This document shows, piece after piece, positions 2-35,267 of a stretch of DNA of 64,000 nucleotides (positions are counted from its first letter, which is position 1; each line of letters starts with the position of its first letter). Origin of the DNA: Escherichia coli. GTDB lineage: Bacteria > Pseudomonadota > Gammaproteobacteria > Enterobacterales > Enterobacteriaceae. The position numbers and the translations under genes are program-made. A model generated the notes under the pieces. That model was not told the DNA's origin. It did no database searches and saw only the letters and a list, made by a program, of their open reading frames with translations. The stretch lies in the NCBI RefSeq assembly GCF_003018115.1, contig NZ_CP027457.1, one strand, 5' to 3'.

Positions 2-502
2 GTAGCCGGTAAAATGAGCAGCGGTGGAGCCGCCAATGGCAGTTACCACAGCAACGGGCTGGGCGGTCACATTGAAACCGGGATGCGATTTACCGATGGT
101 AACTGGAACCTGACGCCGTATGCATCGTTAACGGGGTTCACCGCTGATAACCCTGAATATCATTTATCCAATGGCATGGAATCGAAATCAGTCGATACCC
201 GCAGTATATATCGTGAACTGGGTGCAACGCTGAGTTACAACATGCGTCTGGGGAACGGTATGGAAGTTGAGCCGTGGCTGAAGGCGGCTGTGCGCAAAGA
301 ATTTGTCGATGATAACCGGGTGAAGGTGAATAATGACGGTAATTTCGTCAATGATTTGTCGGGCAGACGTGGAATATACCAGGCAGGTATTAAAGCCTCA
401 TTCAGCAGTACGTTAAGCGGGCATCTCGGGGTGGGGTATAGCAACGGTGCCGATGTGGAATCCCCGTGGAACGCGGTGGCTGGTGTGAACTGGTCGTTCT
501 GA
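2..502 (+). CDS. autotransporter beta-barrel translocator domain, C-terminal fragment (gene starts upstream of window)
   Basis: Open frame from window edge to stop at 500-502; beta-strand-like alternating pattern and terminal ...GVNWSF aromatic end typical of autotransporter C-termini; flanks the ssrA island as ypjA does in K-12-type genomes. Confidence 0.6.
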   Translation, partial: VAGKMSSGGAANGSYHSNGLGGHIETGMRFTDGNWNLTPYASLTGFTADNPEYHLSNGMESKSVDTRSIYRELGATLSYNMRLGNGMEVEPWLKAAVRKEFVDDNRVKVNNDGNFVNDLSGRRGIYQAGIKASFSSTLSGHLGVGYSNGADVESPWNAVAGVNWSF

Positions 503-513
503 CCATCAACGAA

Positions 514-535
514 AAAGCCCACATCTGTGGGCTTT
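514..535 (+). terminator. Rho-independent terminator hairpin
   Basis: Perfect inverted repeat AAAGCCCACA-tc-TGTGGGCTTT immediately after the stop codon. Confidence 0.6.
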
Positions 536-662
536 CATGTCGCCAGGAGCCGCGGCTCCTTTGCGTATCCTTTTTTGTCTCCTCACCGTCTGGTCGGTGT
601 CCTGCTGAGACTGCTAACTTCCTGTTTTTGTTGGTGTTGTCCTTACACCGTCCAATCATGAT

Positions 663-707
663 TGGTGGAGCTGGCGGGAGTTGAACCCGCGTCCGAAATT
701 CCTACAT
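663..707. repeat. attL: 45-bp duplicate of the ssrA 3' end (prophage core attachment repeat)
   Basis: TGGTGGAGCTGGCGGGAGTTGAACCCGCGTCCGAAATTCCTACAT identical to 34905..34949; identity ends at 708. Confidence 0.85.
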
Positions 708-792
708 ACCATTTTCACTATAATAAAAACATTAACTTGCGTTTAAAATCAGTAAGTTAGTATTATCTTGTGTTTGCTCGTTTTACTCATTT

Positions 793-1839
793 TTAATGCT
801 CTGTCGCCAATCTGTCGCCATTGTAGGTCAACGAAGGTTGAGCCTTCCCTTTGTTTGTTATAATTTCATCAAAGATAGCTGGATTATTATCTTTCAGTAA
901 TCTTGCTAGTATAATGATTTGCCCAGACGAGCCATCATCCTTGAATGAAAGGAAATTATCGGTAATATCAAGAATATCAATGGTAAATTTGAAGTAAGTT
1001 TCAATTGTATCGCCAAGCTCAATGCTGGACATGAAGTTAGTAACCATTTCATATCCATCAAAGTATAAAGTTGCATGTTCATTTAACTCCATTGGAGTTA
1101 GGCAAAGCATTCGATTAAGTTCGGATAAGTGTTTTTCTATTGAATGAAGAGATTGCATTTGACGGATTAAAACTTCGTCAAACTGAGAGCCATGATTAGA
1201 TGAATGTATCTTCTCTAGGTTTTTTAGTATATCAACCCAGTGATTATTCACTTCACGTATGTATTCTTTATCTGTATTTTTAGGCCGTCCCTTCTCTGGT
1301 GAGCTATTTATGAAAATATATCTATATAGATGTATTGGGTAGTTAATTTTATAACTTATCTCTTTAGTACCATAATGACGTTCGCGTTTAATGGTTTTGT
1401 TAGGTAAATTGGTGAAATAATCAGTAACGAACTTTAGATGGCTATAGTAGCTATCAGATAGATTCTTTTGCTTGGTTTCCTCAATTTGTCGGTTTGTTTG
1501 AACTGTGCGGTGTATGTTTGCTACGACAGCAACAAATGGTATGGACAAAGAAAGTAAGGCGATAGGAAGCTTGCTAATTGCAATGAAATTATTAAAGCCC
1601 TCACTATCAAATTGAGGGGAATGTCCAAGCCAGGAAAATATACCAAAGTATATCGCTGAAAATACAGGAATCCTAAGTGATTGTTTAAATAAGTATTGAC
1701 TTGTTAATGGCCTTTCATCCATGTTAAAGCCTTTTTTTGATACGCATAGATATAATTCAAGGCATATATATAAAAAATATATTATGATAAGTAAGTACGA
1801 TATCCATGGGTATTGTTGGATATAGTTATTAACAAACAC
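793..1839 (-). CDS. hypothetical membrane protein (about 3 N-terminal TM helices plus ~230-aa soluble domain); AT-rich cargo between int and attL
   Basis: 348-codon ORF with GTG start at 1837-1839 preceded by GGAG; hydrophobic segments WISYLLIIIYFLYICLELYL, IPVFSAIYFGIFSWLG, LPIALLSLSIPFVAVVANI; AT-rich relative to phage backbone; no recognisable catalytic motif. Confidence 0.55.
   Translation of the reverse strand: MFVNNYIQQYPWISYLLIIIYFLYICLELYLCVSKKGFNMDERPLTSQYLFKQSLRIPVFSAIYFGIFSWLGHSPQFDSEGFNNFIAISKLPIALLSLSIPFVAVVANIHRTVQTNRQIEETKQKNLSDSYYSHLKFVTDYFTNLPNKTIKRERHYGTKEISYKINYPIHLYRYIFINSSPEKGRPKNTDKEYIREVNNHWVDILKNLEKIHSSNHGSQFDEVLIRQMQSLHSIEKHLSELNRMLCLTPMELNEHATLYFDGYEMVTNFMSSIELGDTIETYFKFTIDILDITDNFLSFKDDGSSGQIIILARLLKDNNPAIFDEIITNKGKAQPSLTYNGDRLATEH
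801..821. repeat. tandem direct repeats CTGTCGCCA(A/T), candidate integrase arm-type (P') sites
   Basis: CTGTCGCCAAT CTGTCGCCAT about 95-115 bp from the core; same 10-mer occurs as an inverted pair at 34808..34846 near attR. Confidence 0.4.
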
Positions 1840-2868
1840 TTTCTAATTTTCTCCATCCAAGGTTAGCAAGAGGATTTTTGGTTACAGCATCTTCCAGATG
1901 GTCGGGAGCGAAGTGGGCGTAAATCATTGTCATTTTTATATCGACATGGCCCAGAATATCGCGCAGCACCAGTATGTTTCCGCCATTCATCATAAAGTGA
2001 CTTGCAAATGTATGTCGTAATACGTGTGTGCATTGCCCTTCTGGTAGCTCGATGCCAGCTCGTTTTACCGCACGTTCAAAAGCTTTCCTACAAGGTGTAA
2101 ATAATTTTCCCCTATTCTTAGGCAGTTCTTCATATAAATCCTTTGAAATAGGCACTGTTCGGTTTTTCTTTCCTTTAGTCTTGGTATAAGTGATACGGTA
2201 TTTTGACACCTGATGACTCTGCAGGTTTTCGGCTTCGCTCCAGCGTGCGCCGGTGGCCAAGCATATTTTTGCAATCATCAGCAGACTGGGGCTTTGAGAA
2301 TCAGCACAGGCATCCAGCAGACGTTTAATTTCTTCCGGGGTCAGGAACGCCAATTCACCCTCAGCAATTTTAAATGTTGGCAGCCCAGCAAGCGGGTTGG
2401 GGGCTGCCAGTGGCCCAGCTTTTTCAGTGTACCAAAAACAGATGATAGGTTGCGCTGTTCAAGATTTACCGTGCGGGGCTTAACGGGCGACATAAGCGTG
2501 CCATCTTCATTTCGTACTTCACCTTTTAACCGTGCTTCGCGGTATTTCGTAAACTCACCAGCTGTCAGTTCTGAGGCGATGGGATCGCCTAGACCATTAC
2601 AGATAATTCTAAGTTTCGCCATGAGGCGCTTGGGGTCTGCGAGTGTTTGACCATACAGGGAATACCACAGCTCAATTAATTCTGATAGATGTCGCCGATC
2701 TTCCTTTTCCCCTAGCCATGGTTTTTTGTTCACTTCTTCCATTGTGAAGCTTTCAAACGCAATGGCTTCGCCTTTGGTAGCAAATTGCTTACGCACGCGC
2801 TTACCATTGCGTCCATTGGGATAGCACTCACACAACCATTTTCCGTTCGGCTGTTTTCTGATGGTCAT
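1829..2868 (-). pseudogene. int: P2-family tyrosine integrase, interrupted by an apparent 1-nt frameshift in a G5 run (2399..2403)
   Basis: Two overlapping ORFs (2341..2868 N-terminal part, 1829..2353 catalytic part with ...HVLRHTFASHF...MIYAHF motifs); adding one G/C to the homopolymer gives a continuous ...HWQPPNPLAGLPTFKIAEGELAFLTPEEI... reading. Confidence 0.7.
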
Positions 2869-2871
2869 AAG

Positions 2872-3510
2872 TTAGAGGTTCTTGATTACTTTGACTGCAC
2901 GTCCTAGGACTTCCACATCATCTACAGAACATTCAAATGAAGTGTCATCTTGGTTAACTACTATTTTGTTTCCGGGTATGCGCGCAATTTTGACGATGCT
3001 TTTAACTCCGTCCATATCGACTAACCAGAAGCCATTACTGACTTGTTTAACAGACGTATCCACTACAAAGCTATCATTAGCTGTTTTAACAAATAAAGCG
3101 TTGGATGAGTCACCATCGAGCAGGCTGCTATCAAGAAGAATTTCATCACTTGGCTGCAGTTCGCCGTTCTTCAGTTCAACACGTTTGATGCTAGGAGCGA
3201 CGATCTTAGAAAGTGGTCTTACAGTGACAGGAGGTTCATTTTTGAGATTTGTTTCTTCGTTCTCACACGCATACATATCTCCTTGACCAGTAGCCAGCCA
3301 TAGAAGGGAAACTCCTGTTTCAAGGGCACATTGGATTACCCATTCGGCAGGAAAGCTATCCCTTAAGTATCTGTTAGCCATAGTGCTTTTTGATACTTCC
3401 AGATGTTCGCAGAGCTGCTGTCGTGAGCTGAAGTTGTAAGCCTTAATAAGCCTATTAATCGCATCGCGCCCACCACTATCATTCCCCGCCTTGATTAAAC
3501 TCATAATCAA
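2872..3510 (-). CDS. cI: phage 186 CI-type immunity repressor (N-terminal HTH, C-terminal oligomerisation domain)
   Basis: 212-aa ORF divergent from apl/cII; position next to int; HTH-like SRQQLCEHLEVSKSTMANRYL. Confidence 0.75.
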   Translation of the reverse strand: MIMSLIKAGNDSGGRDAINRLIKAYNFSSRQQLCEHLEVSKSTMANRYLRDSFPAEWVIQCALETGVSLLWLATGQGDMYACENEETNLKNEPPVTVRPLSKIVAPSIKRVELKNGELQPSDEILLDSSLLDGDSSNALFVKTANDSFVVDTSVKQVSNGFWLVDMDGVKSIVKIARIPGNKIVVNQDDTSFECSVDDVEVLGRAVKVIKNL

Positions 3511-3620
3511 ACCTCTTGATGTATATAAAAAGTGATCCTAATATCCATCCATGGTTTGAAAAGCAAAACCAAACCACATAAAACAAGATAAAACGAAACC
3601 AAACTAAGAGATACTGCACT
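3511..3620. promoter_or_regulatory. lysis-lysogeny switch region with face-to-face promoters/operators between cI and apl; candidate rightward promoter TTGAAA(3556-3561)-17 bp-TAAAAC(3579-3584)
   Basis: AT-rich 110-bp divergent intergenic region between repressor and excisionase/Cox-like gene. Confidence 0.35.
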
Positions 3621-3863
3621 ATGAGTACTGATATTTCAATTCGTGTACCAAAAGAGATGGCTACGCCTGCAGAGTTCGCGGAATGGGAAGGTATCTCCCG
3701 CGGCTCCGTGTATCAAAAAATTCACCATGGTCAGCTTGCTAAATACATGGTCAAGAAAGAAAAAAACAAAGGCCGCGTAAGCCTGCGTTATTTAATGTAC
3801 AAAACCGATCAGGTCCGTGAATCCCTCGGTCATTCCAACTTCCGCGTCATTGTTGGTAAGTAA
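3621..3863 (+). CDS. apl: Apl/Cox-like excisionase and transcriptional regulator
   Basis: 80-aa ORF first in the early rightward operon, opposite cI; HTH-like EFAEWEGISRGSVYQKIHHGQL. Confidence 0.7.
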   Translation: MSTDISIRVPKEMATPAEFAEWEGISRGSVYQKIHHGQLAKYMVKKEKNKGRVSLRYLMYKTDQVRESLGHSNFRVIVGK

Positions 3864-3895
3864 GTTCAATTATGAGAACTTTCTAAGGGGGTAGC

Positions 3896-4405
3896 ATGTT
3901 TGATTATAAGATTTCCAAACACCCGCATTTTGATGAAGCCTGTAGAGCTTTTGCACTTCGTCACAATATGGCGAAGCTGGCAGAACGTGCAGGAATGAAT
4001 GTCCAGACTTTGCGAAACAAACTCAACCCAGATCAACCGCATCAGCTAAATGCGCCAGAAATCTGGCTGCTTACCGATCTGACTGAAGATTCAACGCTGA
4101 TAGATGGTTTTCTGGCACAGATTCACTGCCTGCCATGTGTACCGATTAATGAGGTAGCAAAAGAGAAACTGCCGCATTACGTCATGAGTGCAACTGCAGA
4201 GATCGGGCGTGTTGCTGCTGGTGCGGTATCTGGCGATGTAAAAACCAGTGCAGGTCGTCGTGATGCTATCAGCAGCATTAACTCTGTAACACGACTGATG
4301 GCGCTGGCTGCTGTTTCATTGCAGGCCCGTTTACAGGCTAACCCGGCGATGGCGAGTGCAGTTGATACCATGACTGGCCTTGGTGCTTCATTCGGTTTGC
4401 TGTGA
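3896..4405 (+). CDS. cII: CII-like lysogeny establishment activator (186 CII-type)
   Basis: 169-aa ORF directly after apl with RBS; HTH near N-terminus (MNVQTLRNKLN); 186-like order. Confidence 0.65.
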   Translation: MFDYKISKHPHFDEACRAFALRHNMAKLAERAGMNVQTLRNKLNPDQPHQLNAPEIWLLTDLTEDSTLIDGFLAQIHCLPCVPINEVAKEKLPHYVMSATAEIGRVAAGAVSGDVKTSAGRRDAISSINSVTRLMALAAVSLQARLQANPAMASAVDTMTGLGASFGLL

Positions 4406-10356: not shown

Positions 10357-12138
10357 ATGGCTGAACTATTACCGCAAACAACTTCTATACAAACTATTTA
10401 TTCATGGTTTACTGAAGGTAAGATATTTGTTAATAGACGTTATCAACGAAAATTAGTTTGGACTGCAATAGAGAAACAAAAATTAATTGAATCCATTCAA
10501 AAAAAATATCCAATTCCTGCAGTTCTTCTCGCGGAAAGGGAAAATGATCCTGGCACATATGAAATAATTGATGGCCTACAAAGATTACATGCAATAATGT
10601 CTTTCATCGAAACAGGATATGAATCACTTGATGGAAAACGTTTTAATCTGGACGCTTTTCCCACAGCGAAAAATCGAGCGGATGAAGGTAAGTTTGTTGC
10701 AGTGAAAGCTGATAATCTTTTAAGTCAGCGTGAGGTTACTCAGTTATTGGATTATTCTCTTGCAATGTCCATTATGCGTAATGCGACTGAGAACGAAATA
10801 AATGATGTTTTTGATAGAATTAATACATACGGGCATAGACTTAGTGATCAAGAAAGGCGCCAGGCTGGTATACAAAATAAATTTTCAAATATGGTTAGGG
10901 ATATTGCCTGTTCTATCAGGGGGGATGTATCTGACGACATATTGCTTTTAGAGCAAATGCCGTCTATTAGCATTGATTTGCCACTAACTAAACATGGTTA
11001 CCAAATTCAGTCGGAAGAAGTATTTTGGGTAAAACATGGGATCTTACGTTCAACAGACCTTCGTGACAGTATGGATGAGCAATGCATTGCAGATATAGCA
11101 GCTTGTATTGTTGGAGGTAAGTTAATAGATCGTTCCAAAGATGCGCTTGATCAGATTTATAATAATGAAGATGAAGAGTATAGTCGTATTAGCTCTGCTA
11201 TTAATGTTTATGGTGAAGGAAAATTTGCAGAAGAGTTTAAATTCTGCATCCAGGAAATAACAAAAGTATGTAATAGTGACGGTGAAATTAAACTCAGGGA
11301 TTTAATCTTTACTAAACGTACTACAAATGCTTTCCCAGCCATATTTGCTGTGTTATTTATTGCTTTTCATGAATTACTCATTAAAGAAAATAAGAAGATT
11401 AATAATTATAAAGGTGTAAAAGACAATCTTAATAATATAGTCACTCGACTAGATACTAAAAGATCTGCTACTGGTGGGGAAGAGAGAAGAAAGAATATTA
11501 ATTCTATCATAGGCTTGATTAAAGATAACTTTATTGATAGCGCCGATAGCAGTCATATCTATAATTCTCACAATACGGTGGATATTGAGGATATTTTACG
11601 AAGATCTGAAATAGAGCTTGCAAATTATGAACTGAAACAGGGTTTGTTGATGTTAGGCGGAGAGCGAACTATTGATGATGGCATTCATGAGAAAATATTC
11701 TCCACAATTTGTGCTATTGCTAACATCGGTAAAGGTAACAAGAACGGTGTAGTTGGTAAGTTATTGCTTGGTGTAACAGATAAACCAAGTGATACAAGTA
11801 GAGTAAAAGAGCTTGATGATATAGATGCACATGTAGTTGGTGAGAGAAGTGTTGTTGGTGTTAAAAGAGAAGCTATTAAACTCGGCATATCAATGGAAGA
11901 ATATTATAGACGTTTTTGCGATGAGTTGAAAAAATCTGCTTTGAGTGAGCCTCTTAAATCACAAGTGGTGAGTTTGATTGACTATAATGACTTTTATGGT
12001 TATGGAGTTATAGTTATTACAATTCCACTTCTAGCATCTTATTCTAGTTATGATGGGGATATTTATTATCGTGCTGGCGATAATACCGTAAAAGCAACAG
12101 TTATCGAAGCAGCAGATATTGCAACACGTTTTAAATGA
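10357..12138 (+). CDS. DUF262 (ParB/GmrS-like NTPase/nuclease-fold) N-domain fused to Schlafen/AlbA_2-like C-domain; candidate anti-phage defence protein
   Basis: 593 aa; N-terminal RRYQRKLVW and IIDGLQRLHA motifs (DUF262 signature); C-terminal ELANYELKQ...ICAIANIGKGNKNGVVGKLLLGVTD...IYYRAGDNT resembles AlbA_2/Schlafen core; no H-N-H/DUF1524 motif; AT-rich; between cos and portal gene. Confidence 0.7.
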   Translation: MAELLPQTTSIQTIYSWFTEGKIFVNRRYQRKLVWTAIEKQKLIESIQKKYPIPAVLLAERENDPGTYEIIDGLQRLHAIMSFIETGYESLDGKRFNLDAFPTAKNRADEGKFVAVKADNLLSQREVTQLLDYSLAMSIMRNATENEINDVFDRINTYGHRLSDQERRQAGIQNKFSNMVRDIACSIRGDVSDDILLLEQMPSISIDLPLTKHGYQIQSEEVFWVKHGILRSTDLRDSMDEQCIADIAACIVGGKLIDRSKDALDQIYNNEDEEYSRISSAINVYGEGKFAEEFKFCIQEITKVCNSDGEIKLRDLIFTKRTTNAFPAIFAVLFIAFHELLIKENKKINNYKGVKDNLNNIVTRLDTKRSATGGEERRKNINSIIGLIKDNFIDSADSSHIYNSHNTVDIEDILRRSEIELANYELKQGLLMLGGERTIDDGIHEKIFSTICAIANIGKGNKNGVVGKLLLGVTDKPSDTSRVKELDDIDAHVVGERSVVGVKREAIKLGISMEEYYRRFCDELKKSALSEPLKSQVVSLIDYNDFYGYGVIVITIPLLASYSSYDGDIYYRAGDNTVKATVIEAADIATRFK

Positions 12139-22818: not shown

Positions 22819-23416
22819 TCTGCTGCCACCGGGTTCAACTTCACTGGAGCGCCGACTGGCGCAAACCTGTAGCGGGATTTCTGATCTGCAGGTGCCGCTG
22901 CGTGACTTGTGGAATCCGGCTACCTGTCCGGTCAGCTTCCTGCCTTATCTCGCCTGGGCGTTCTCTGTGGATCGCTGGGACGAGGGCTGGACAGAAAGCG
23001 TCAAACGCCAGGTAGTGAAGGATGCTTTTTATATTCATCAGCATAAAGGAACCACCAGTGCCGTGCGGCGGGTGGTGGAACCGTTCGGATTCCTGATCCG
23101 CATTATTGAGTGGTGGCAGACCGGAGAGGCTCCGGGCACGTTTCGCCTGGATATCGGCGTGCAGGACCAGGGCATCACTGAAGATACCTATCTGGAACTT
23201 GAGCGACTGATAAGCGATGCCAAACCATGTAGCCGCCACATGATCGGCATGTCCATCAATCTGCAGACCAGCGGCCCGCATTGGGTGGGAGCCGCCAGCT
23301 ATCTTGGCGAAGAAATCACGATCTATCCGTATATCAACGAAACAATTATTTCCGGTGGCACCGCGCATGAAGGCGGGGCGGTCCATGTTATTGACACAAT
23401 GAGAGTGAATCCATGA
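22811..23416 (+). CDS. I: baseplate protein (P2 gpI-like)
   Basis: 201 aa; GGAGG RBS. Confidence 0.75.
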   Translation: MNSLLPPGSTSLERRLAQTCSGISDLQVPLRDLWNPATCPVSFLPYLAWAFSVDRWDEGWTESVKRQVVKDAFYIHQHKGTTSAVRRVVEPFGFLIRIIEWWQTGEAPGTFRLDIGVQDQGITEDTYLELERLISDAKPCSRHMIGMSINLQTSGPHWVGAASYLGEEITIYPYINETIISGGTAHEGGAVHVIDTMRVNP

Positions 23417-24835
23417 GCACAAAATTTTATACCCTGCTGACGGATATTGGCGCGGCGAAACTTGCCAGCGCCGCCGCGCTCGGTGTGCCGCTAAAAATTA
23501 CCCATATGGCGGTGGGCGATGGCGGCGGAGCATTGCCGACGCCGGACGCAAAGCAGACGGCACTGGTAAATGAGAAACGCCGGGCTGCGCTGAATATGCT
23601 CTATATCGACCCGCAGAACAGCAGCCAGATTATTGCTGAACAGGTGATCCCTGAAAATGAGGGTGGTTGGTGGATACGTGAAGTGGGTCTGTTTGATGAG
23701 TCCGGGGCATTGATTGCCGTAGGCAACTGCCCGGAAAGCTATAAGCCGCAACTGGCTGAAGGCAGCGGGCGCACCCAGACCGTGCGCATGGTGCTGATTA
23801 CCAGCAGCACGGACAATATCACCCTGAAAATCGACCCTGCCGTCGTGCTGGCAACCCGCAAGTATGTGGATGACAAGGTACTGGAGCTGAAGGTGTTCGT
23901 GGATGATAAGATGGCAAAACATCTTGCCGCACCGGACCCGCATTCACAGTATGCACCCAAAGAAAGCCCGACATTGACCGGAACACCCAAAGCGCCAACG
24001 CCAGCGGAGGGGAATAACACCACGCAGATTGCGACCACCGCGTTTGTTCAGGCCGCTATTACTGCTCTGATTAACGGTGCGCCAGCCACGCTGGACACAC
24101 TGAAAGAAATTGCCGCAGCCATTAACAATGACCCGAAATTCAGTACCACCATTAACAATGCGCTGGCACTAAAAGCACCGCTGTCGAGTCCGGCACTCAC
24201 CGGAACGCCAACAGCACCTACTGCGGCACAGTCGGTCAACAATACACAGATTGCCACTACAGCTTTTGTGAAATCAGCGATTGCGGCAATGGTGGGTTCT
24301 GCACCTGCTGCACTGGATACACTGAACGAACTGGCGGCGGCGCTGGGGAATGACCCGAACTTTGCCACGACAATGTTGAATGCGCTGTCAGGCAAACAAC
24401 CGCTGGACAATACGCTGACTAATTTGAGTGGAAAGGATGTTGCTGGTCTTCTCGCATACCTTGGTTTGGGAGAAGCGGCAAAACGGGATGTGGGGACAGG
24501 GGAAAATCAGATACCGGACATGGCCTCTTTTGCCAGTGGTGATGGATGGATGAAATTACCCAACGGGAAAATCCTGCAATATGGTCGTGGTGCGGTTACG
24601 CCGACATTATCGACGCAAAACAATGAGAATTACATTCAGCATTCCTTTCCCCAAAAAAGCGGACTGCGCCATGCTTACTCATTCTGGTGATGGCGGTGCG
24701 CCTTTAGGCGCTGGGCGAGGGTTCGTGATGACTGCAGAAGGCCCAACGTTAACCGGCTTTAATTCTGCTTACAGAACGTCATCAACCAGCGACACGGTAT
24801 CGATGAATTACAGTTGGTGGGCTGTTGGTGAGTAA
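23413..24835 (+). CDS. H: tail fibre protein (P2 gpH-like); variable C-terminal part lies inside the invertible segment; apparent +1 frameshift at C4A6 run 24649..24658
   Basis: Collagen-like repeats (TGTPKAPT.., TGTPTAPT..); frame from 23413 stops at 24690 while an overlapping frame (24581..24835) runs open to just before tfa; removing one A from A6 joins them. Confidence 0.7.
24449..24474. repeat. invertase crossover site (left), TTCTCGCATACC-TT-GGTTTGGGAGAA
   Basis: 26-bp imperfect dyad inside H at the GLGE codons; right half is the exact reverse complement of the left half of the site at 26358..26383. Confidence 0.6.
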
Positions 24836-24855
24836 TTTTATTCAGGGTGATTTAT

Positions 24856-25299
24856 ATGAACGAATATGTTTATAGCGCAAGGCATAATGCTTTTTTCCCT
24901 GTGGATATGATTGATAAATATAAATCAGAGGGATGGGATTTATCAGACGCTAAGGAAGTAAATCAAAATATTATCAGTGAGTTTATGGCTGAACCGCCAC
25001 AAGGAAAAATCCGTATTGCCGGAGATGATGGGCTGCCTGCGTGGGCAGATATTCCTCCACCCACGCATGAAGAGCTTATTGAAATTACTGAATCAGAAAG
25101 ACAGCTACTAATTAACCAGGCCAACGAATACATGAACAGTAAGCAATGGCCCGGTAAAGCCGCTATTGGTCGTCTGAAAGGTGAGGAACTGGCGCAATAT
25201 AATTTGTGGCTGGATTATCTGGACGCACTGGAGCTGATCGATACTTCCGGTGCGCCAGATATTGAATGGCCTACGCCTCCGGCAGTTCAGGCCAGATGA
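24856..25299 (+). CDS. tail fibre assembly protein (Tfa, gpG/U-like)
   Basis: Follows the fibre gene in current orientation. Confidence 0.75.
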   Translation: MNEYVYSARHNAFFPVDMIDKYKSEGWDLSDAKEVNQNIISEFMAEPPQGKIRIAGDDGLPAWADIPPPTHEELIEITESERQLLINQANEYMNSKQWPGKAAIGRLKGEELAQYNLWLDYLDALELIDTSGAPDIEWPTPPAVQAR

Positions 25300-25873
25300 C
25301 ATCCGGCGCTGTGCTGGTATCTGTTGCCGTCACCGCGTCAATGTAATCCAGCACAGCGTTAAGGCGGGTTGTTTCTGCCTGCGTCAGCTTCCGTCCGGCC
25401 TGTAATTTCAGTTGAATCAGACTGATGGAGGCCATTGCAGTATCAATCAGCGACTGGCGCTGTGCTTCTGCTGCATCTACTGCTGCGCCGTGCTGTGCCT
25501 TGGTATCTGTCACCCATTTCTCACCATTCCATTCATCGTATGGCGTTAACGGGGCGATAGTGGTTGTATTTTCAGGATAATCACCCGGAGCTGTGATTTC
25601 TTTCGATTCTCCTGTTTCGATGCTATAGACGATTTCACCGCGATGATCTGGCACATATTCCCATGAATTTAAATTCACAGAACGACAGATTGCATAACCA
25701 ACCTTATGTATGCCTGGTGCATCAAGACAGGAACATGCCGGAATACCGACACCAACAGCAAGATATTCAGTTGACGTGGAAATATATTCCCGTGTTTCAC
25801 CATCGTAGTTATAAACGGTAACATCCCCTGCCTTTGTTGCAATAAGGTCACTATTTAATATTGCTTTATGCAT
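25271..25873 (-). CDS. alternative tail fibre assembly protein (Tfa')
   Basis: 200 aa on opposite strand within invertible segment; C-terminal ...DTSTAPDVIWPELPEA parallels Tfa ...DTSGAPDIEWPTPPA. Confidence 0.75.
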   Translation of the reverse strand: MHKAILNSDLIATKAGDVTVYNYDGETREYISTSTEYLAVGVGIPACSCLDAPGIHKVGYAICRSVNLNSWEYVPDHRGEIVYSIETGESKEITAPGDYPENTTTIAPLTPYDEWNGEKWVTDTKAQHGAAVDAAEAQRQSLIDTAMASISLIQLKLQAGRKLTQAETTRLNAVLDYIDAVTATDTSTAPDVIWPELPEA

Positions 25874-26370
25874 CAGGCTGCCCTCACGATATAATTAAAT
25901 GCAATATTACGCGGACGCGTTTCTGAGGCTGCGGCACCTAAACCAGCCACTGATTGTTTATATGTTTTAAAGGTTCCATAATCCGGTGCTGGTAATCCGG
26001 CATCGTTTGTGTTTCCTCTTTTGATAATGTCAGTGCCACTATTTACCCAGCTTTCATCAAAATAGAAATTAATAGTTGCATCAGTCACAATCGTGGATCT
26101 TGACGGTAATCCATGAGCATGATCCTCCGTTGCATATCCCTGAATACTTAAAATAGAGCGACCTGTATCAATCCCCGCCCGTCATCCCAGCCACGAATAA
26201 ACTCACCACGTAAATCAGGCAATTTATTTGTCGGGTAAACTTTTGCCAGTTCCGGGTATTCTTCAGCAGAAAAAGCTGCACCATTGCATTTCAGCCAGCC
26301 TGTAGGCGGAGTGGCTGAAGGCCACGGAACAGGGACACCAACAGGTAATGCAGAGCCTTCTCCCAAACCA
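25873..26370 (-). other. alternative tail-fibre variable C-terminal segment (H'), promoterless, with apparent frameshift at C4 run 26173..26176
   Basis: Minus-strand reading from the crossover site: ...GLGEGSALPVGVPVPWPSATPPTGWLKCNGAAFSAEEYPELAKVYPTNKLPDLRGEFIRGWDDGRG, then frame shifts to ...DTGRSILSIQGYATEDHAHGLPSRSTIVTDATINFYFDE... Confidence 0.6.
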
Positions 26371-26383
26371 ACGTTTATGAAAA
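26358..26383. repeat. invertase crossover site (right), TTCTCCCAAACC-AA-CGTTTATGAAAA
   Basis: Inverted relative to left site; core dinucleotide AA vs TT. Confidence 0.6.
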
Positions 26384-26438
26384 TGCAGAGATAATGGCTA
26401 ACTGGCATCATCCCCGGTTTTTATTCAGGGGATTGATC

Positions 26439-27005
26439 ATGCTTATTGGCTATGTACGCGTGTCAACAAATGACCAGAACACCGATTTGCAACGTAATGC
26501 ACTGAACTGCGCGGGATGTGAGCGGATTTTTGAGGACAAAATCAGTGGCACTAAGTCCGACAGACCGGGGCTTAAAAAACTGCTCAGGACACTATCGGCA
26601 GGTGACACACTGGTTGTCTGGAAGCTGGACAGGTTGGGGCGCAGTATGCAGCATCTTGTTACGCTGATAGAAGAGTTGCGCCAGCGTGGCGTGAATTTCC
26701 GAAGCCTGACTGACAGTATTGATACCAGTACCCCAATGGGCCGTTTCTTTTTTCATGTCATGGGTGCCCTGGCTGAAATGGAACGCGAACTGATAGTTGA
26801 ACGTACCAGGGCAGGGCTGGCTGCAGCTCGTGCCAAAGGCAGAGTAGGTGGGCGTCGTCCTAAGTTGACCACCGAACAGTGGGCACAGATTGGACGTTTA
26901 CTCGAGGCCGGAGAATCAAGACAGCGTATTGCACTGATTTTTGATGTGGGCGTTTCTACCATTTATAGAAAATTTCCGGTGAATGAGAGCAATGAATCGC
27001 CCTGA
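26439..27005 (+). CDS. serine DNA invertase (Gin/Hin/Cin/Pin family)
   Basis: MLIGYVRVSTNDQNTDLQRNAL (catalytic Ser in VRVST) and C-terminal HTH; 188 aa. Confidence 0.9.
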   Translation: MLIGYVRVSTNDQNTDLQRNALNCAGCERIFEDKISGTKSDRPGLKKLLRTLSAGDTLVVWKLDRLGRSMQHLVTLIEELRQRGVNFRSLTDSIDTSTPMGRFFFHVMGALAEMERELIVERTRAGLAAARAKGRVGGRRPKLTTEQWAQIGRLLEAGESRQRIALIFDVGVSTIYRKFPVNESNESP

Positions 27006-27053
27006 GTCAGCATTATTTTGATTTTTCCTGTAAGCGGACAAATACCGTTATTT

Positions 27054-27071
27054 TGTGTGAATAACGACACA
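27054..27071 (+). promoter_or_regulatory. Ogr-dependent late promoter dyad TGT-N12-ACA (pF-like)
   Basis: TGTGTGAATAACGACACA about 85 bp upstream of FI. Confidence 0.6.
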
Positions 27072-27147
27072 ACTGCGCTTAGCTGTTTGTCAGGCACAAT
27101 CACTTCAACATAGGGCGAAGCCTAATCCAATCAGGAGGTTCGCCACT

Positions 27148-28320
27148 ATGGCTCAGGATTACCACCACGGGGTGCGCGTTGTTGAAGTCAACGAAGGCAC
27201 CCGATCTATTACCACGGTGAGCACCGCCATCGTGGGTATGGTCTGCACGGGCGATGATGCCGATGCAAAAATGTTTCCTCTTAATAAACCCGTGCTGATC
27301 ACTGATGTGCTGACTGCCAGCGGTAAAGCGGGTGAGTCAGGTACTCTGGCCCGTTCGCTGGATGCCATCGCTGACCAGGCAAAACCCGTGACCATTGTTG
27401 TGCGTGTGCCGCAGGGTGAAACGGAAGACGAAACCACGACCAATATCATCGGCGCAGTGACTGCTGAAGGTAAAAAAACAGGTATGAAAGCCCTGTTATC
27501 TGCCCAGTCACAGCTCGGCGTTAAACCGCGCATTCTCGGCGTGCCAGGCCACGACACCAAGGCGGTAGCTACTGAGTTGCTGAGCGTGGCGCAAAGCCTG
27601 CGTGGATTTGCTTACCTGTCAGCGTATGGCTGCAAGACAGTGCAGGAGGCGATCACTTACCGCGAAAACTTCAGCCAGCGCGAAGGGATGCTGATCTGGC
27701 CTGACTTTACTGGTTGGGACACGGTGCTGAATGCCGAAGCAACGGCATATGCCGCCGCCCGTGCGCTTGGTCTGCGCGCCAAAATTGACGAGCAGACCGG
27801 ATGGCACAAAAGCCTGTCCAACGTGGGCGTGAACGGTGTCACCGGAATTTCTGCAGATGTGTTCTGGGATCTGCAGGACCCGGCAACCGATGCAGGTCTG
27901 CTGAACCAGAACGACGTCACCACGCTTGTGCGTAAAGACGGTTTCCGCTTCTGGGGTTCCCGCTGCCTGAGTGATGACCCGCTCTTTGCCTTCGAAAACT
28001 ACACCCGCACGGCGCAGGTGCTGATGGACACGATGGCAGAAGCACACATGTGGGCGGTGGATAAACCGCTTAACCCGTCGCTGGCCCGCGACATTATCGA
28101 AGGTATCCGCGCCAAAATGCGCAGCCTGGTCAGTCAGGGCTATCTCATTGGTGGTGATTGCTGGCTGGATGAGTCGGTGAACGACAAAGACACGCTGAAA
28201 GCCGGAAAACTCACCATCGACTACGACTACACGCCAGTGCCGCCACTTGAAAACCTGATGCTGCGTCAGCGCATCACCGATCAGTACCTGGTGAATTTCG
28301 CCAGCCAGGTCAGCGCGTAA
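27148..28320 (+). CDS. FI: tail sheath protein (P2 gpFI-like)
   Basis: 390 aa; strong RBS AGGAGG; synteny. Confidence 0.85.
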
Positions 28321-34904: not shown

Positions 34905-35267
34905 TGGTGGAGCTGGCGGGAGTTGAACCCGCGTCCGAAATTCCTACATCCTCGGTACTACATGCTTAGTCAGTCTTTACATTCGCTTGCCAGCTGCGGA
35001 CGGACACGCCACTAACAAACTAGCCTGATTAAGTTTTAACGCTTCAACCCCTGGCAGGGCTTCCACGCGATCTCTTTTGGGTTTGACCTCTCTTGATCCC
35101 CGTCCTAAGAGCGGAGGCTAGGGAGAGAGGGCTCTAAGCAGGTTATTAAGCTGCTAAAGCGTAGTTTTCGTCGTTTGCGACTATTTTTTGCGGCTTTTTA
35201 CGAGGCCAACCGCCCCTCGGCATGCACCTTGGGTTTCGCAAATCCCGTCGAATCCAGAATCAGCCCC
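34905..35267 (-). ncRNA. ssrA: tmRNA (SsrA), complete; 3' 45 nt form attR
   Basis: Reverse complement matches the E. coli tmRNA from GGGGCTGATTCTGGATTCGACGGG to ...GGTTCAACTCCCGCCAGCTCCACCA, including the tag-encoding region. Confidence 0.95.

What the first reader, a model, noticed from the sequence alone, without database searches (positions are those of the whole stretch)
24449..27005. Gin/Hin-type invertible tail-fibre segment with defined crossover sites
Two 26-bp sites in inverted orientation (TTCTCGCATACC-TT-GGTTTGGGAGAA and TTCTCCCAAACC-AA-CGTTTATGAAAA) flank a 1.9 kb segment carrying alternative fibre C-termini and opposed Tfa genes, with a serine invertase immediately adjacent. The left site sits exactly at the GLGE codons where the constant and variable fibre parts join. 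Well-known biology, but the sites can be pinpointed here.
Basis: partly seen in the sequence, partly recalled or inferred. Interest (0 to 1): 0.35.

Follow-up and report, generated by a model that had tools for sequence, protein, structure and literature searches.

The report
Pin-type invertible phage tail-fibre switch
This is an ordinary, already well-described DNA-flipping switch in a P2-like prophage of E. coli that swaps the tip of the phage tail fibre; it has flipped among sister isolates, although the prophage is decaying and one or both fibre tips are broken.

Summary
Two 26-bp sites lie in inverted orientation at 24449-24474 and 26358-26383. They are the only two such sites in the 64 kb window. 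They flank a 1.9 kb segment holding two opposed fibre tips and two opposed Tfa chaperone genes. A 188-aa serine invertase starts 55 bp to the right.

The system is the e14 Pin / P1 Cin / Mu Gin type, with the invertase outside the segment. It is not the Hin promoter-flip type. The right site is identical to the e14 site, and the invertase is 84% identical to PinE.

Inversion at exactly these sites is shown by comparison. A sister isolate matches the in-silico flipped window over 6,967 bp with no mismatch and one gap.

- The integrase is frameshifted; the same split gene occurs on 24 contigs.
- The gp53-like tip, currently fused to the fibre, is frameshifted (A4 instead of A3). The sister isolate shares this.
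- The collar tip has a one-base deletion (C4 instead of C5) seen only in this assembly among its sisters. The same call recurs in unrelated assemblies, so error or mutation is unresolved.
- The invertase carries R71Q, unique among 81 relatives.

This is known biology and of low interest.

The parts
23413..24461 (+). Constant N-terminal part of the tail-fibre gene (P2 gpH-like, 350 codons up to the crossover)
   Evidence: Pfam PF12571 Phage_tail_fib, E = 4.5e-65. It is 94-95% identical to the fibre constant part of related prophages.
24449..24474 (.). Left 26-bp recombination site TTCTCGCATACC-TT-GGTTTGGGAGAA; crossover dinucleotide at 24461-24462
   Evidence: The identical sequence is the left site in 23 of 63 related viral contigs. 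Colinear and inverted alignments to relatives overlap only within 24458-24475.
24463..24835 (+). Variable tip A (gp53-like C-terminal domain), currently fused to the constant part. It is frameshifted by one extra A in the run at 24617-24620, so the ORF stops at 24690
   Evidence: Pfam PF21882 Gp53-like_C on the downstream frame. A4 here versus A3 in all relatives, and 0 of 415 E. coli genomes match exactly. The A4 allele is shared by the sister isolate L099. Deleting one A gives a 473-aa fibre.
24856..25299 (+). Tail-fibre assembly chaperone for tip A (147 aa)
   Evidence: Pfam PF02413 Caudo_TAP, E = 1.3e-30. The exact protein is on 16 contigs.
25271..25873 (-). Tail-fibre assembly chaperone for tip B (TfaE-like, 200 aa), convergent with the first and overlapping its 3' end by 29 bp, as in e14
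   Evidence: Pfam PF02413, E = 2.8e-31. It lies within the window stretch 25144-26900 that is 89% identical to e14 tfaE-stfE-pinE.
25873..26369 (-). Variable tip B (tail-collar domain, StfE-like), silent in this orientation. One C is missing from the run at 26173-26176
   Evidence: Pfam PF07484 Collar, E = 1.2e-15. C4 here versus C5 in relatives. The sister isolate L099 has 5 and an intact 515-aa fibre, which is on 5 contigs. Inserting one base restores a 515-aa fibre whose printed last 179 residues differ from the intact fibre of strain 13E0767 at one position (A for T in the constant part, LLAYLG vs LLTYLG) and are identical from the GLGE junction to the stop.
26358..26383 (.). Right 26-bp recombination site TTCTCCCAAACC-AA-CGTTTATGAAAA; crossover dinucleotide at 26370-26371
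   Evidence: It is identical to the e14 site 55 bp upstream of pinE. The identical sequence is the right site in 29 of 74 related contigs, always 54-55 bp before the invertase start.
26439..27005 (+). Serine DNA invertase (188 aa), Pin/Cin/Gin family, carrying the unusual substitution R71Q
   Evidence: Pfam Resolvase, E = 2.9e-53, plus HTH_7. Identity is 84% to PinE, 76% to Cin and 73% to Gin. Gin structure 3uj3 matches at E = 6e-92. Q71 occurs once, against 79 R and 1 K, among 81 sequences. The exact protein is on 19 contigs.
26457..26528 (+). Putative Fis-dependent recombinational enhancer inside the invertase gene (nt 19-90). Two near-invariant blocks lie at 26463-26482 and 26514-26533
   Evidence: It is positionally homologous to the enhancer annotated in the P1 record at cin nt 19-90, with 56 of 72 bases identical. 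Synonymous sites are nearly invariant in two blocks about 50 bp apart across 60 distinct genes. Synonymous diversity is lower in codons 7-30 than in the rest of the gene (0.138 vs 0.218, one-sided p = 0.014). This is inferred, not shown.

Best explanation
This is a Pin/Cin/Gin-type site-specific inversion switch in the tail-fibre gene of a P2-like prophage integrated next to ssrA in E. coli.

Mechanism. A small serine invertase (26439-27005) binds the two 26-bp sites. With host Fis bound to an enhancer inside the 5' end of its own gene, it cuts both sites at the central 2-bp core (24461-62 and 26370-71) and rotates the 1.9 kb segment. This mechanism is inferred from the family.

Consequence. 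The constant 350-codon fibre N-terminus is joined in frame, at ...LAYL|GLGE..., to one of two tips: a gp53-like tip or a tail-collar (StfE-like) tip. Each tip brings its own Tfa chaperone gene into the sense orientation. The other tip and chaperone are left promoterless on the opposite strand.

State in this lineage. The switch has flipped, because sister isolates with otherwise identical DNA hold the segment in opposite orientations. The prophage is degrading: the integrase is frameshifted and the gp53-like tip is frameshifted. Only the collar orientation can therefore give a full-length fibre. The window shows the orientation fused to the dead tip. In this assembly the collar tip also carries a one-base deletion of uncertain reality.
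For: - Sites: (two hits, 0.01 expected by chance).
- Same site family as known systems: one half-site scan recovers the Mu gix sites and P1 cixL exactly at the boundaries annotated in those records. The window's right site is identical to the e14 site. PMC12529663 reports the e14 P-segment repeats as TTGGTTTGGGAGAAGG / CCTTCTCCCAAACCAA, the same core as here.
- Enzyme. Ser9 is present. The invertase-specific residues that PMC3798978 ties to Fis/enhancer activation are present: Hin K47/R48/K51 correspond to K46/K47/R50, and Hin Q151/R154/L155 correspond to Q..RL.
- In-frame fusion in both states.
- Inversion: related phages and genomes carry the segment flipped, with breakpoints confined to 24458-24475 and 26357-26374. 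An in-silico flipped query is colinear over at least 80% of its length in 82 complete E. coli genomes, against 58 for the window orientation. Among IMG/VR contigs the TfaE-like gene is in one orientation in about 20 and in the other in about 25.
- Decisive comparison: sister assembly GCA_051443285.1 equals the flipped window over 6,967 bp with 0 mismatches and 1 gap.
- Enhancer.
- Decay: integrase frameshift, with the same split on 24 contigs from independent runs. The A4 frameshift is shared with the sister isolate.
Against: - No reads from this strain are available, so flipping within this culture is not shown.
- The invertase has R71Q at a position that is basic in 80 of 80 other relatives, and its activity is untested.
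- No sigma-70-like promoter for the invertase was found.
- The two Fis sites cannot be placed with confidence. The G-N13-C cores at nt 22-36 and 71-85 are 49 bp apart, and the second is G+C-rich.
- With the tips broken, the switch may have no phenotypic output here.
Confidence: 0.93

Rival explanations
1. The cis-encoded invertase is crippled by R71Q. The orientation differences among sister isolates are produced in trans by other Pin-family invertases encoded elsewhere in the genome.
For: Q71 is unique among 81 sequences, where the others have 79 R and 1 K. PMC12529663 reports that PinE, PinQ and PinR all invert the e14 P segment, whose repeats have the same core as here. E. coli genomes that match this region do so at a median of 2 places.
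Against: The position is not one of the catalytic residues, and gamma-delta resolvase aligns a non-basic residue there (alignment). The Q71 protein persists unchanged on 19 contigs. The rest of the genome is not available to show whether a second invertase exists.
Confidence: 0.2
2. All frameshifts are assembly errors, and the locus is a fully working two-tip host-range switch.
For: Both tip frameshifts lie in short homopolymers. The same C5-to-C4 call recurs in assemblies of the K-12 derivatives DH5alpha, JW5437-1 and CV601gfp, although the MG1655 reference has C5. The C4 allele is absent from the sister isolate, and its predicted 87-aa product is on record nowhere else.
Against: The A4 allele is present in an independent sister assembly. 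The integrase frameshift is on 24 contigs from independent runs. The 29 kb chromosomal flank has no coding indel relative to a genome 99.8% identical, so the assembly is not generally error-prone.
Confidence: 0.04
3. The host retains the grounded prophage's switch as an anti-phage device, as proposed for e14. Inversion would create free-standing chimeric tip proteins, starting from the ATG at 26411 on the minus strand, that block adsorption of other phages.
For: The layout matches e14. A minus-strand ORF starts outside the segment at 26411 (MMPVSHYLCIFINVGLGE...) and reads into whichever tip lies next to the invertase. PGAP annotates that ORF as a 178-aa protein in relatives. PMC12529663 reports that the e14 chimera StfE2 blocks T2 adsorption. 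The integrase is dead but the switch still flips.
Against: In this sequence both tips are frameshifted, so any such product is truncated. There is no expression or phenotype evidence here. All other structural genes of the prophage look intact, which argues for a recently grounded phage rather than a domesticated module.
Confidence: 0.06
4. It is a multi-site shuffling system (Min of p15B, or the three-site P2-like locus of EPEC) or a Hin-type promoter flip, rather than a simple two-state exon swap.
For: Such variants exist in P2-like prophages (PMC4272514).
Against: Only two sites are present in the window, even allowing 3 mismatches or a half-site score of at least 16 of 24. Almost all of the 74 related contigs also have two sites. 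The invertase lies outside the segment, and the segment carries coding exons rather than a promoter.
Confidence: 0.01

Closest known systems
e14 cryptic prophage P segment with PinE (E. coli K-12)
   Same: The right site is identical and lies at the same 55-bp distance from the invertase start. The invertase is 84% identical. Window 25144-26900 is 89% identical at the DNA level to tfaE-stfE-pix-pinE. The convergent tfa genes overlap by the same 29 bp, and the same minus-strand ORF starts outside the segment. Segment sizes are similar: 1,797 bp reported for e14 (PMC12529663) and 1,909 bp between cores here.
   Different: The host element here is a nearly complete P2-like prophage at ssrA, not the lambdoid remnant e14. 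The second arm is a gp53-like tip with a 147-aa Tfa rather than StfP/TfaP. The left site differs at 3 of 26 positions. The invertase has R71Q and a different C-terminal tail.
Phage P1 C segment with Cin, and phage Mu G segment with Gin
   Same: The logic is the same: a constant fibre part, two alternative tips each with its chaperone gene, the invertase just outside the segment, 26-bp sites of the same family, and an enhancer in the 5' end of the invertase gene (annotated in the P1 record at cin nt 19-90).
   Different: The invertase is only 76% (Cin) and 73% (Gin) identical. The short inverted repeats here (about 15 bp of exact identity) contrast with the longer repeats recalled for Mu and P1 (from memory, not tested). 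The tips are unrelated in sequence.
Salmonella H segment with Hin
   Same: It belongs to the same Fis/enhancer-dependent invertase subclass. The residues K47/R48/K51 and Q151/R154/L155 described in PMC3798978 are conserved here.
   Different: [quoted passage not shown] Here the invertase is outside the segment and coding exons are swapped.
Invertible fibre segments of P2-like (pro)phages, e.g. Escherichia phage 500465-1 (Wadgaonvirus), pro483, and the EPEC E2348/69 prophages
   Same: The gene order is the same (I, H, segment, invertase, sheath), the invertase is 97-98% identical, and the sites are the same. Inversion in P2-like prophages of EPEC was shown by sequencing and PCR (PMC4272514).
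   Different: Nothing differs in kind. This copy has lineage-specific lesions: the integrase frameshift, the tip frameshifts and R71Q.

Membership tests
Fis/enhancer-dependent DNA invertases (Gin/Cin/Pin/Hin) | Small serine recombinase with an N-terminal catalytic domain carrying the nucleophilic Ser and a C-terminal helix-turn-helix domain | tested here: met
   Pfam Resolvase (E = 2.9e-53) plus HTH_7. There is a full-length match to the Gin structures 3uj3 and 4m6f (E = 6e-92). YVRVS with Ser9 is conserved.
Fis/enhancer-dependent DNA invertases (Gin/Cin/Pin/Hin) | Two 26-bp sites (12-2-12 imperfect dyads) in inverted orientation with matching central dinucleotides | tested here: met
   The cores are TT and AA on the + strand, so they are identical when the sites are read in the same sense.
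Fis/enhancer-dependent DNA invertases (Gin/Cin/Pin/Hin) | Sites belong to the gix/cix/pix sequence family | tested here: met
   One half-site scan finds the window sites, the Mu gix sites and P1 cixL at their annotated boundaries, and the e14 sites. The right site is identical to that of e14.
Fis/enhancer-dependent DNA invertases (Gin/Cin/Pin/Hin) | Invertase-specific residues that contact Fis and enhancer DNA (Hin K47, R48, K51; Q151, R154, L155; PMC3798978) | tested here: met
   K46 K47 R50 and Q-I-G-R-L are present at the aligned positions.
Fis/enhancer-dependent DNA invertases (Gin/Cin/Pin/Hin) | Recombinational enhancer with two Fis sites in cis, within the 5' end of the invertase gene | tested here: inconclusive
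   The stretch is homologous to P1's annotated enhancer (56 of 72 bases identical). Two blocks with invariant synonymous sites lie about 50 bp apart. Fis binding was not tested, and the core positions are ambiguous (49 bp spacing, and the second core is G+C-rich).
Fis/enhancer-dependent DNA invertases (Gin/Cin/Pin/Hin) | The segment actually inverts by exchange at the site cores | tested here: met
   A sister isolate equals the in-silico flipped window over 6,967 bp with 0 mismatches. There are 82 versus 58 complete genomes in the two orientations. Breakpoints lie inside the sites. Flipping within this strain's own culture is not testable with these tools.
Phage tail-fibre host-range switches (G, C and P segments) | A constant fibre N-terminus joined in frame to either of two alternative C-termini, each followed by its own Tfa chaperone gene | tested here: met
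   The architecture and the reading frame across the junction are as expected in both states. However, tip A is frameshifted in this lineage and tip B is frameshifted in this assembly.
Hin-type promoter inversion | Invertase gene and a promoter lie inside the invertible segment, and the output is transcriptional | tested here: not met
   The invertase lies 55 bp outside the right site, and the segment carries coding exons.
Multiple-inversion systems (Min of p15B; the three-site P2-like locus of EPEC) | More than two crossover sites, giving more than two arrangements | tested here: not met
   Only two sites are found in 64 kb at relaxed thresholds.

The most novel reading that the evidence does not exclude
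The prophage is grounded by a real integrase frameshift, yet its segment still flips. The host may therefore keep the switch for its own use. It could act as an ON/OFF control of the one surviving fibre tip. Alternatively, as reported for e14 StfE2, it could produce free tip proteins from the minus-strand ORF at 26411 that block adsorption of competing phages. In that reading, the recurrent loss of one C in the collar-tip C5 run (this strain, ET210, 07-4299 and three K-12 derivatives) would reflect repeated selection against a costly tip protein rather than sequencing error.
Probability: 0.07. Interest if true: 0.45.

Novelty: already known. Interest (0 to 1): 0.13.

Why it matters
It matters little for discovery. 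Invertible tail-fibre segments driven by Gin/Cin/Pin invertases are textbook biology. Relatives with 96-98% identical invertases are annotated in public phage and E. coli genomes, and inversion in P2-like prophages and in e14 has been shown experimentally.

Three points have practical value:
1. The crossover cores can be given to the base (24461-62 and 26370-71) and are validated by a sister isolate.
2. Annotation pipelines and short-read assemblers handle this locus poorly. Fibre ORFs are split, contigs end near the segment boundary, and one homopolymer is repeatedly called one base short. Fibre pseudogene calls here therefore need checking against reads.
3. It is a clean example of a prophage whose integrase and one fibre tip are dead while its inversion switch still operates.

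Tried and rejected
- Promoter and terminator scan of 23000-27300. It found no sigma-70-like promoter for the invertase or inside the segment, and fewer promoter-like sites than in shuffles, so it is uninformative.
- Placing the two Fis sites by G-N13-C cores. Candidates at nt 22-36 and 71-85 are 49 bp apart (I recall 48 bp for Hin, from memory), and the second is G+C-rich. I left this as inconclusive and relied on homology to P1's annotated enhancer and on synonymous-site conservation.
- Literature on the residue equivalent to Q71 (Hin K72). Nothing was found in PMC4513852. The original e14 P-segment paper (PMC554175) is not held.
- First idea for the frameshifts: consensus errors caused by mixed orientation or paralogues. 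I rejected this for the A4 and integrase lesions once sister assemblies showed the same alleles. It remains open only for the C4 lesion.
- Programmed ribosomal frameshifting at the two runs. I considered this from the sequence and saw no slippery heptamer. It was not pursued.
- Additional internal sites (shufflon- or Min-like). None were found.
- I did not use structure prediction, RNA-family tools or remote homology searches. The family assignment was unambiguous without them.
Full report
**Observation.** The left site, TTCTCGCATACC-TT-GGTTTGGGAGAA, is at 24449-24474. The right site, TTCTCCCAAACC-AA-CGTTTATGAAAA, is at 26358-26383. They form the top inverted repeat of the region: 27 nt, 81% complementary, 1881 nt apart. 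A degenerate pattern with up to three mismatches finds only these two places in the 64 kb window, against 0.01 expected by chance. The central dinucleotides read the same when the sites are placed in the same sense, as inversion requires.

**Context.** The window is E. coli chromosome; the flank is 99.7-99.8% identical to complete E. coli genomes. It carries a P2-like prophage whose right end abuts ssrA (tmRNA at 34905-35267). The local gene order is baseplate V-W-J-I, fibre gene (from 23413), invertible segment, invertase (26439-27005), tail sheath (27148-28320), tube and tape measure.

**Anatomy.**
- The fibre ORF has the P2-type N-terminal domain (PF12571).
- Inside the segment lie a gp53-like tip followed by a 147-aa Tfa on the + strand.
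- On the - strand lie a tail-collar tip followed by a 200-aa TfaE-like Tfa.
- The two tfa genes converge and overlap by 29 bp, as in e14.
- The inner half-site encodes G-L-G-E in both arms, and the crossover core lies in the preceding Leu codon. Flipping in silico therefore gives ...LLAYLGLGE-GSALPVGVPVPW..., which is in frame.

**The enzyme.** The invertase has the Resolvase and HTH_7 domains. It aligns end to end with the Gin crystal structures (E = 6e-92). It is 84% identical to PinE, 76% to Cin and 73% to Gin. Ser9 is present, as are the residues that PMC3798978 identifies as specific to Fis/enhancer-activated invertases: Hin K47/R48/K51 and Q151/R154/L155. One substitution stands out. Position 71 is Q here, whereas it is R in 79 and K in 1 of the other 80 sequences compared. 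The exact Q71 protein occurs on 19 public contigs, so it is a real lineage variant and not an error.

**The sites compared with known ones.**
- A single half-site scan recovers the Mu gix sites centred on the annotated G-segment boundaries. It also recovers P1 cixL centred on the annotated crossover, and the two e14 sites.
- The window's right site is identical to the e14 site and lies the same 55 bp from the invertase start.
- PMC12529663 gives the e14 P-segment repeats as TTGGTTTGGGAGAAGG / CCTTCTCCCAAACCAA, the same core as here.
- In 74 related IMG/VR contigs the right site always lies 54-55 bp upstream of the invertase. Both sites are strongly conserved, and the distance between sites ranges from 1.1 to 2.8 kb, with many different cassettes.

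**Does it invert?** I found evidence at three levels.
1. Related phages (500465-1, KP12) and several genomes have the segment flipped. Colinear and inverted alignments overlap only within 24458-24475 and 26357-26374.
2. A query made by flipping the window in silico at the two cores is colinear over at least 80% of its length in 82 complete E. coli genomes, several in one piece at about 96% identity. The window orientation gives 58 such genomes. In IMG/VR contigs the TfaE-like gene is about equally often in either orientation.
3. The decisive comparison is with a sister assembly. GCA_051443285.1 carries the identical Q71 invertase and matches the flipped window over 6,967 bp with no mismatch and a single gap. 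Other sister contigs show the window orientation at the right junction.

This very segment has therefore flipped at these cores since the isolates diverged.

**Enhancer.** The P1 record annotates the Cin enhancer at nt 19-90 of cin. The corresponding window stretch (26457-26528) is 56 of 72 bases identical to it, against 71% identity for the rest of the gene. Among 60 distinct invertase genes, two blocks (nt 25-44 and nt 76-95) are nearly invariant even at synonymous positions. Synonymous diversity is lower in codons 7-30 than elsewhere (0.138 vs 0.218, one-sided p = 0.014). The sequences are related, so this is only indicative. The AT-rich elements ATTTG and TAATG lie between the blocks, matching the ATTTA and TAATG described between the Hin Fis sites (PMC3798978). 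I could not place the Fis cores confidently, so this feature stays inferred.

- Relative to a 96.4% identical colinear relative, the window has exactly two indels in 3.8 kb. One is an extra A in the run at 24617-24620 (tip A). The other is a missing C in the run at 26173-26176 (tip B).
- As read, the fibre therefore stops at 24690 (425 aa), and the silent tip is split into 87-aa and 71-aa ORFs.
- Correcting one base in each restores fibres of 473 and 515 aa.
- Across 27 kb aligned to another P2-like prophage, these are the only coding indels. The 29 kb chromosomal flank has none.
- The prophage integrase is also split into an Int_N ORF and a catalytic-domain ORF. The cause is a one-base deletion near 2407, which is absent from all ten best relatives.

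**Are the lesions real?**
- The integrase split is on 24 contigs from independent sequencing runs, so it is real.
- The A4 allele is absent from 415 complete genomes carrying this tip but present in the sister assembly, so it is real and specific to this lineage.
- The C4 allele is not in the sister assembly, which has an intact 515-aa fibre found on five contigs. Its predicted product is on record nowhere else.
- The same C5-to-C4 call appears in ET210, in isolate 07-4299 and in three K-12 derivatives, although the MG1655 reference has C5. This is either a systematic assembly error or a recurrent mutation, and I cannot tell which.

**Interpretation.** The locus is a standard Pin/Cin/Gin-type tail-fibre host-range switch with exactly defined cores. 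It sits in a prophage that is grounded and partly decayed. In this lineage only the collar orientation can encode a complete fibre, and the window shows the other orientation. Pin-family invertases work in trans (PMC12529663), so neither R71Q nor any defect of the cis enzyme would by itself stop flipping.

**Novelty.** There is none in kind. The e14 P segment (Plasterk and van de Putte 1985, cited in PMC4272514), the P1 C and Mu G segments, and inversions in P2-like prophages of EPEC (PMC4272514) cover this biology. Phage records whose invertases are 97-98% identical to this one already annotate a 'DNA invertase' next to paired tfa genes. Interest is low. The lesions and the recurrent homopolymer call are minor curiosities.

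Noticed in passing
window 1829-2868 (-), deletion near 2407: The prophage integrase is split into an Int_N ORF (2341-2868) and a catalytic-domain ORF (1829-2353). The cause is a one-base deletion (GGCTG-CCAGTGG versus GGCTGACCAGTGG in relatives). The same split gene is on 24 contigs from independent runs, so the prophage is probably locked in the chromosome.
   Followed up: yes
window 26649-26651 (invertase codon 71): The invertase has Gln at position 71, where 79 relatives have Arg and Gin has Lys. The exact protein is on 19 contigs, so the variant is real. Its effect on activity is unknown.
   Followed up: partly
window 26173-26176; L094, L095, L096, L007, L012: The C5 run in the collar tip is called as C4 in three K-12 derivative assemblies (DH5alpha, JW5437-1, CV601gfp), although the MG1655 reference has C5. 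It is also C4 in ET210 and isolate 07-4299. This is either a hotspot of assembly error or a recurrent inactivating mutation.
   Followed up: partly
window 26148-26411 (-): An ORF starts at the ATG at 26411, in the 55-bp spacer between the right site and the invertase. It reads on the minus strand into whichever tip lies next to the invertase (MMPVSHYLCIFINVGLGE...). The layout matches e14 stfE, whose inversion chimera StfE2 is reported to block T2 adsorption.
   Followed up: partly
window 10357-12138 (+): A low-GC (0.36) cargo gene lies between the replication gene and the portal gene. It has a GmrSD_N domain (E = 1.6e-22) and its best PADLOC match is NsnA (E = 8e-31). It is probably an anti-phage nuclease in a P2 cargo hotspot. 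A relative carries an AAA ATPase plus HNH endonuclease pair at a different position instead.
   Followed up: partly
window 27054-27071: A TGT-N12-ACA motif lies about 86 bp upstream of the tail-sheath start codon. It resembles the Ogr-dependent P2 late-promoter element, as I recall it from memory. This would make the invertase module an insertion between two late operons.
   Followed up: no
L001, L010, L011 (E. coli RefSeq records): When the gp53-like tip is fused, PGAP annotates the fibre as a 'partial' N-terminal pseudogene plus a separate gp53-like protein, although the ORF is continuous (473 aa in L001). This is an annotation artefact of the locus.
   Followed up: yes
L100 and 12 similar contigs; protein cluster 2: Most short-read sister assemblies end 144 bp upstream of the invertase. 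Many public 'partial' fibre proteins are 346-349 aa long, which means they stop at the crossover. Assemblies break at the segment boundary, as expected from mixed orientations or paralogous cassettes.
   Followed up: partly
L012 (isolate 07-4299); H76 (strain EC6563); L098 (CFSAN051542): Related copies show other damage inside or next to the segment. There are three frameshift flags within the segment in 07-4299, an IS1 under the match in EC6563, and an IS1 within the segment plus large deletions in CFSAN051542, which sits at the same ssrA site.
   Followed up: no
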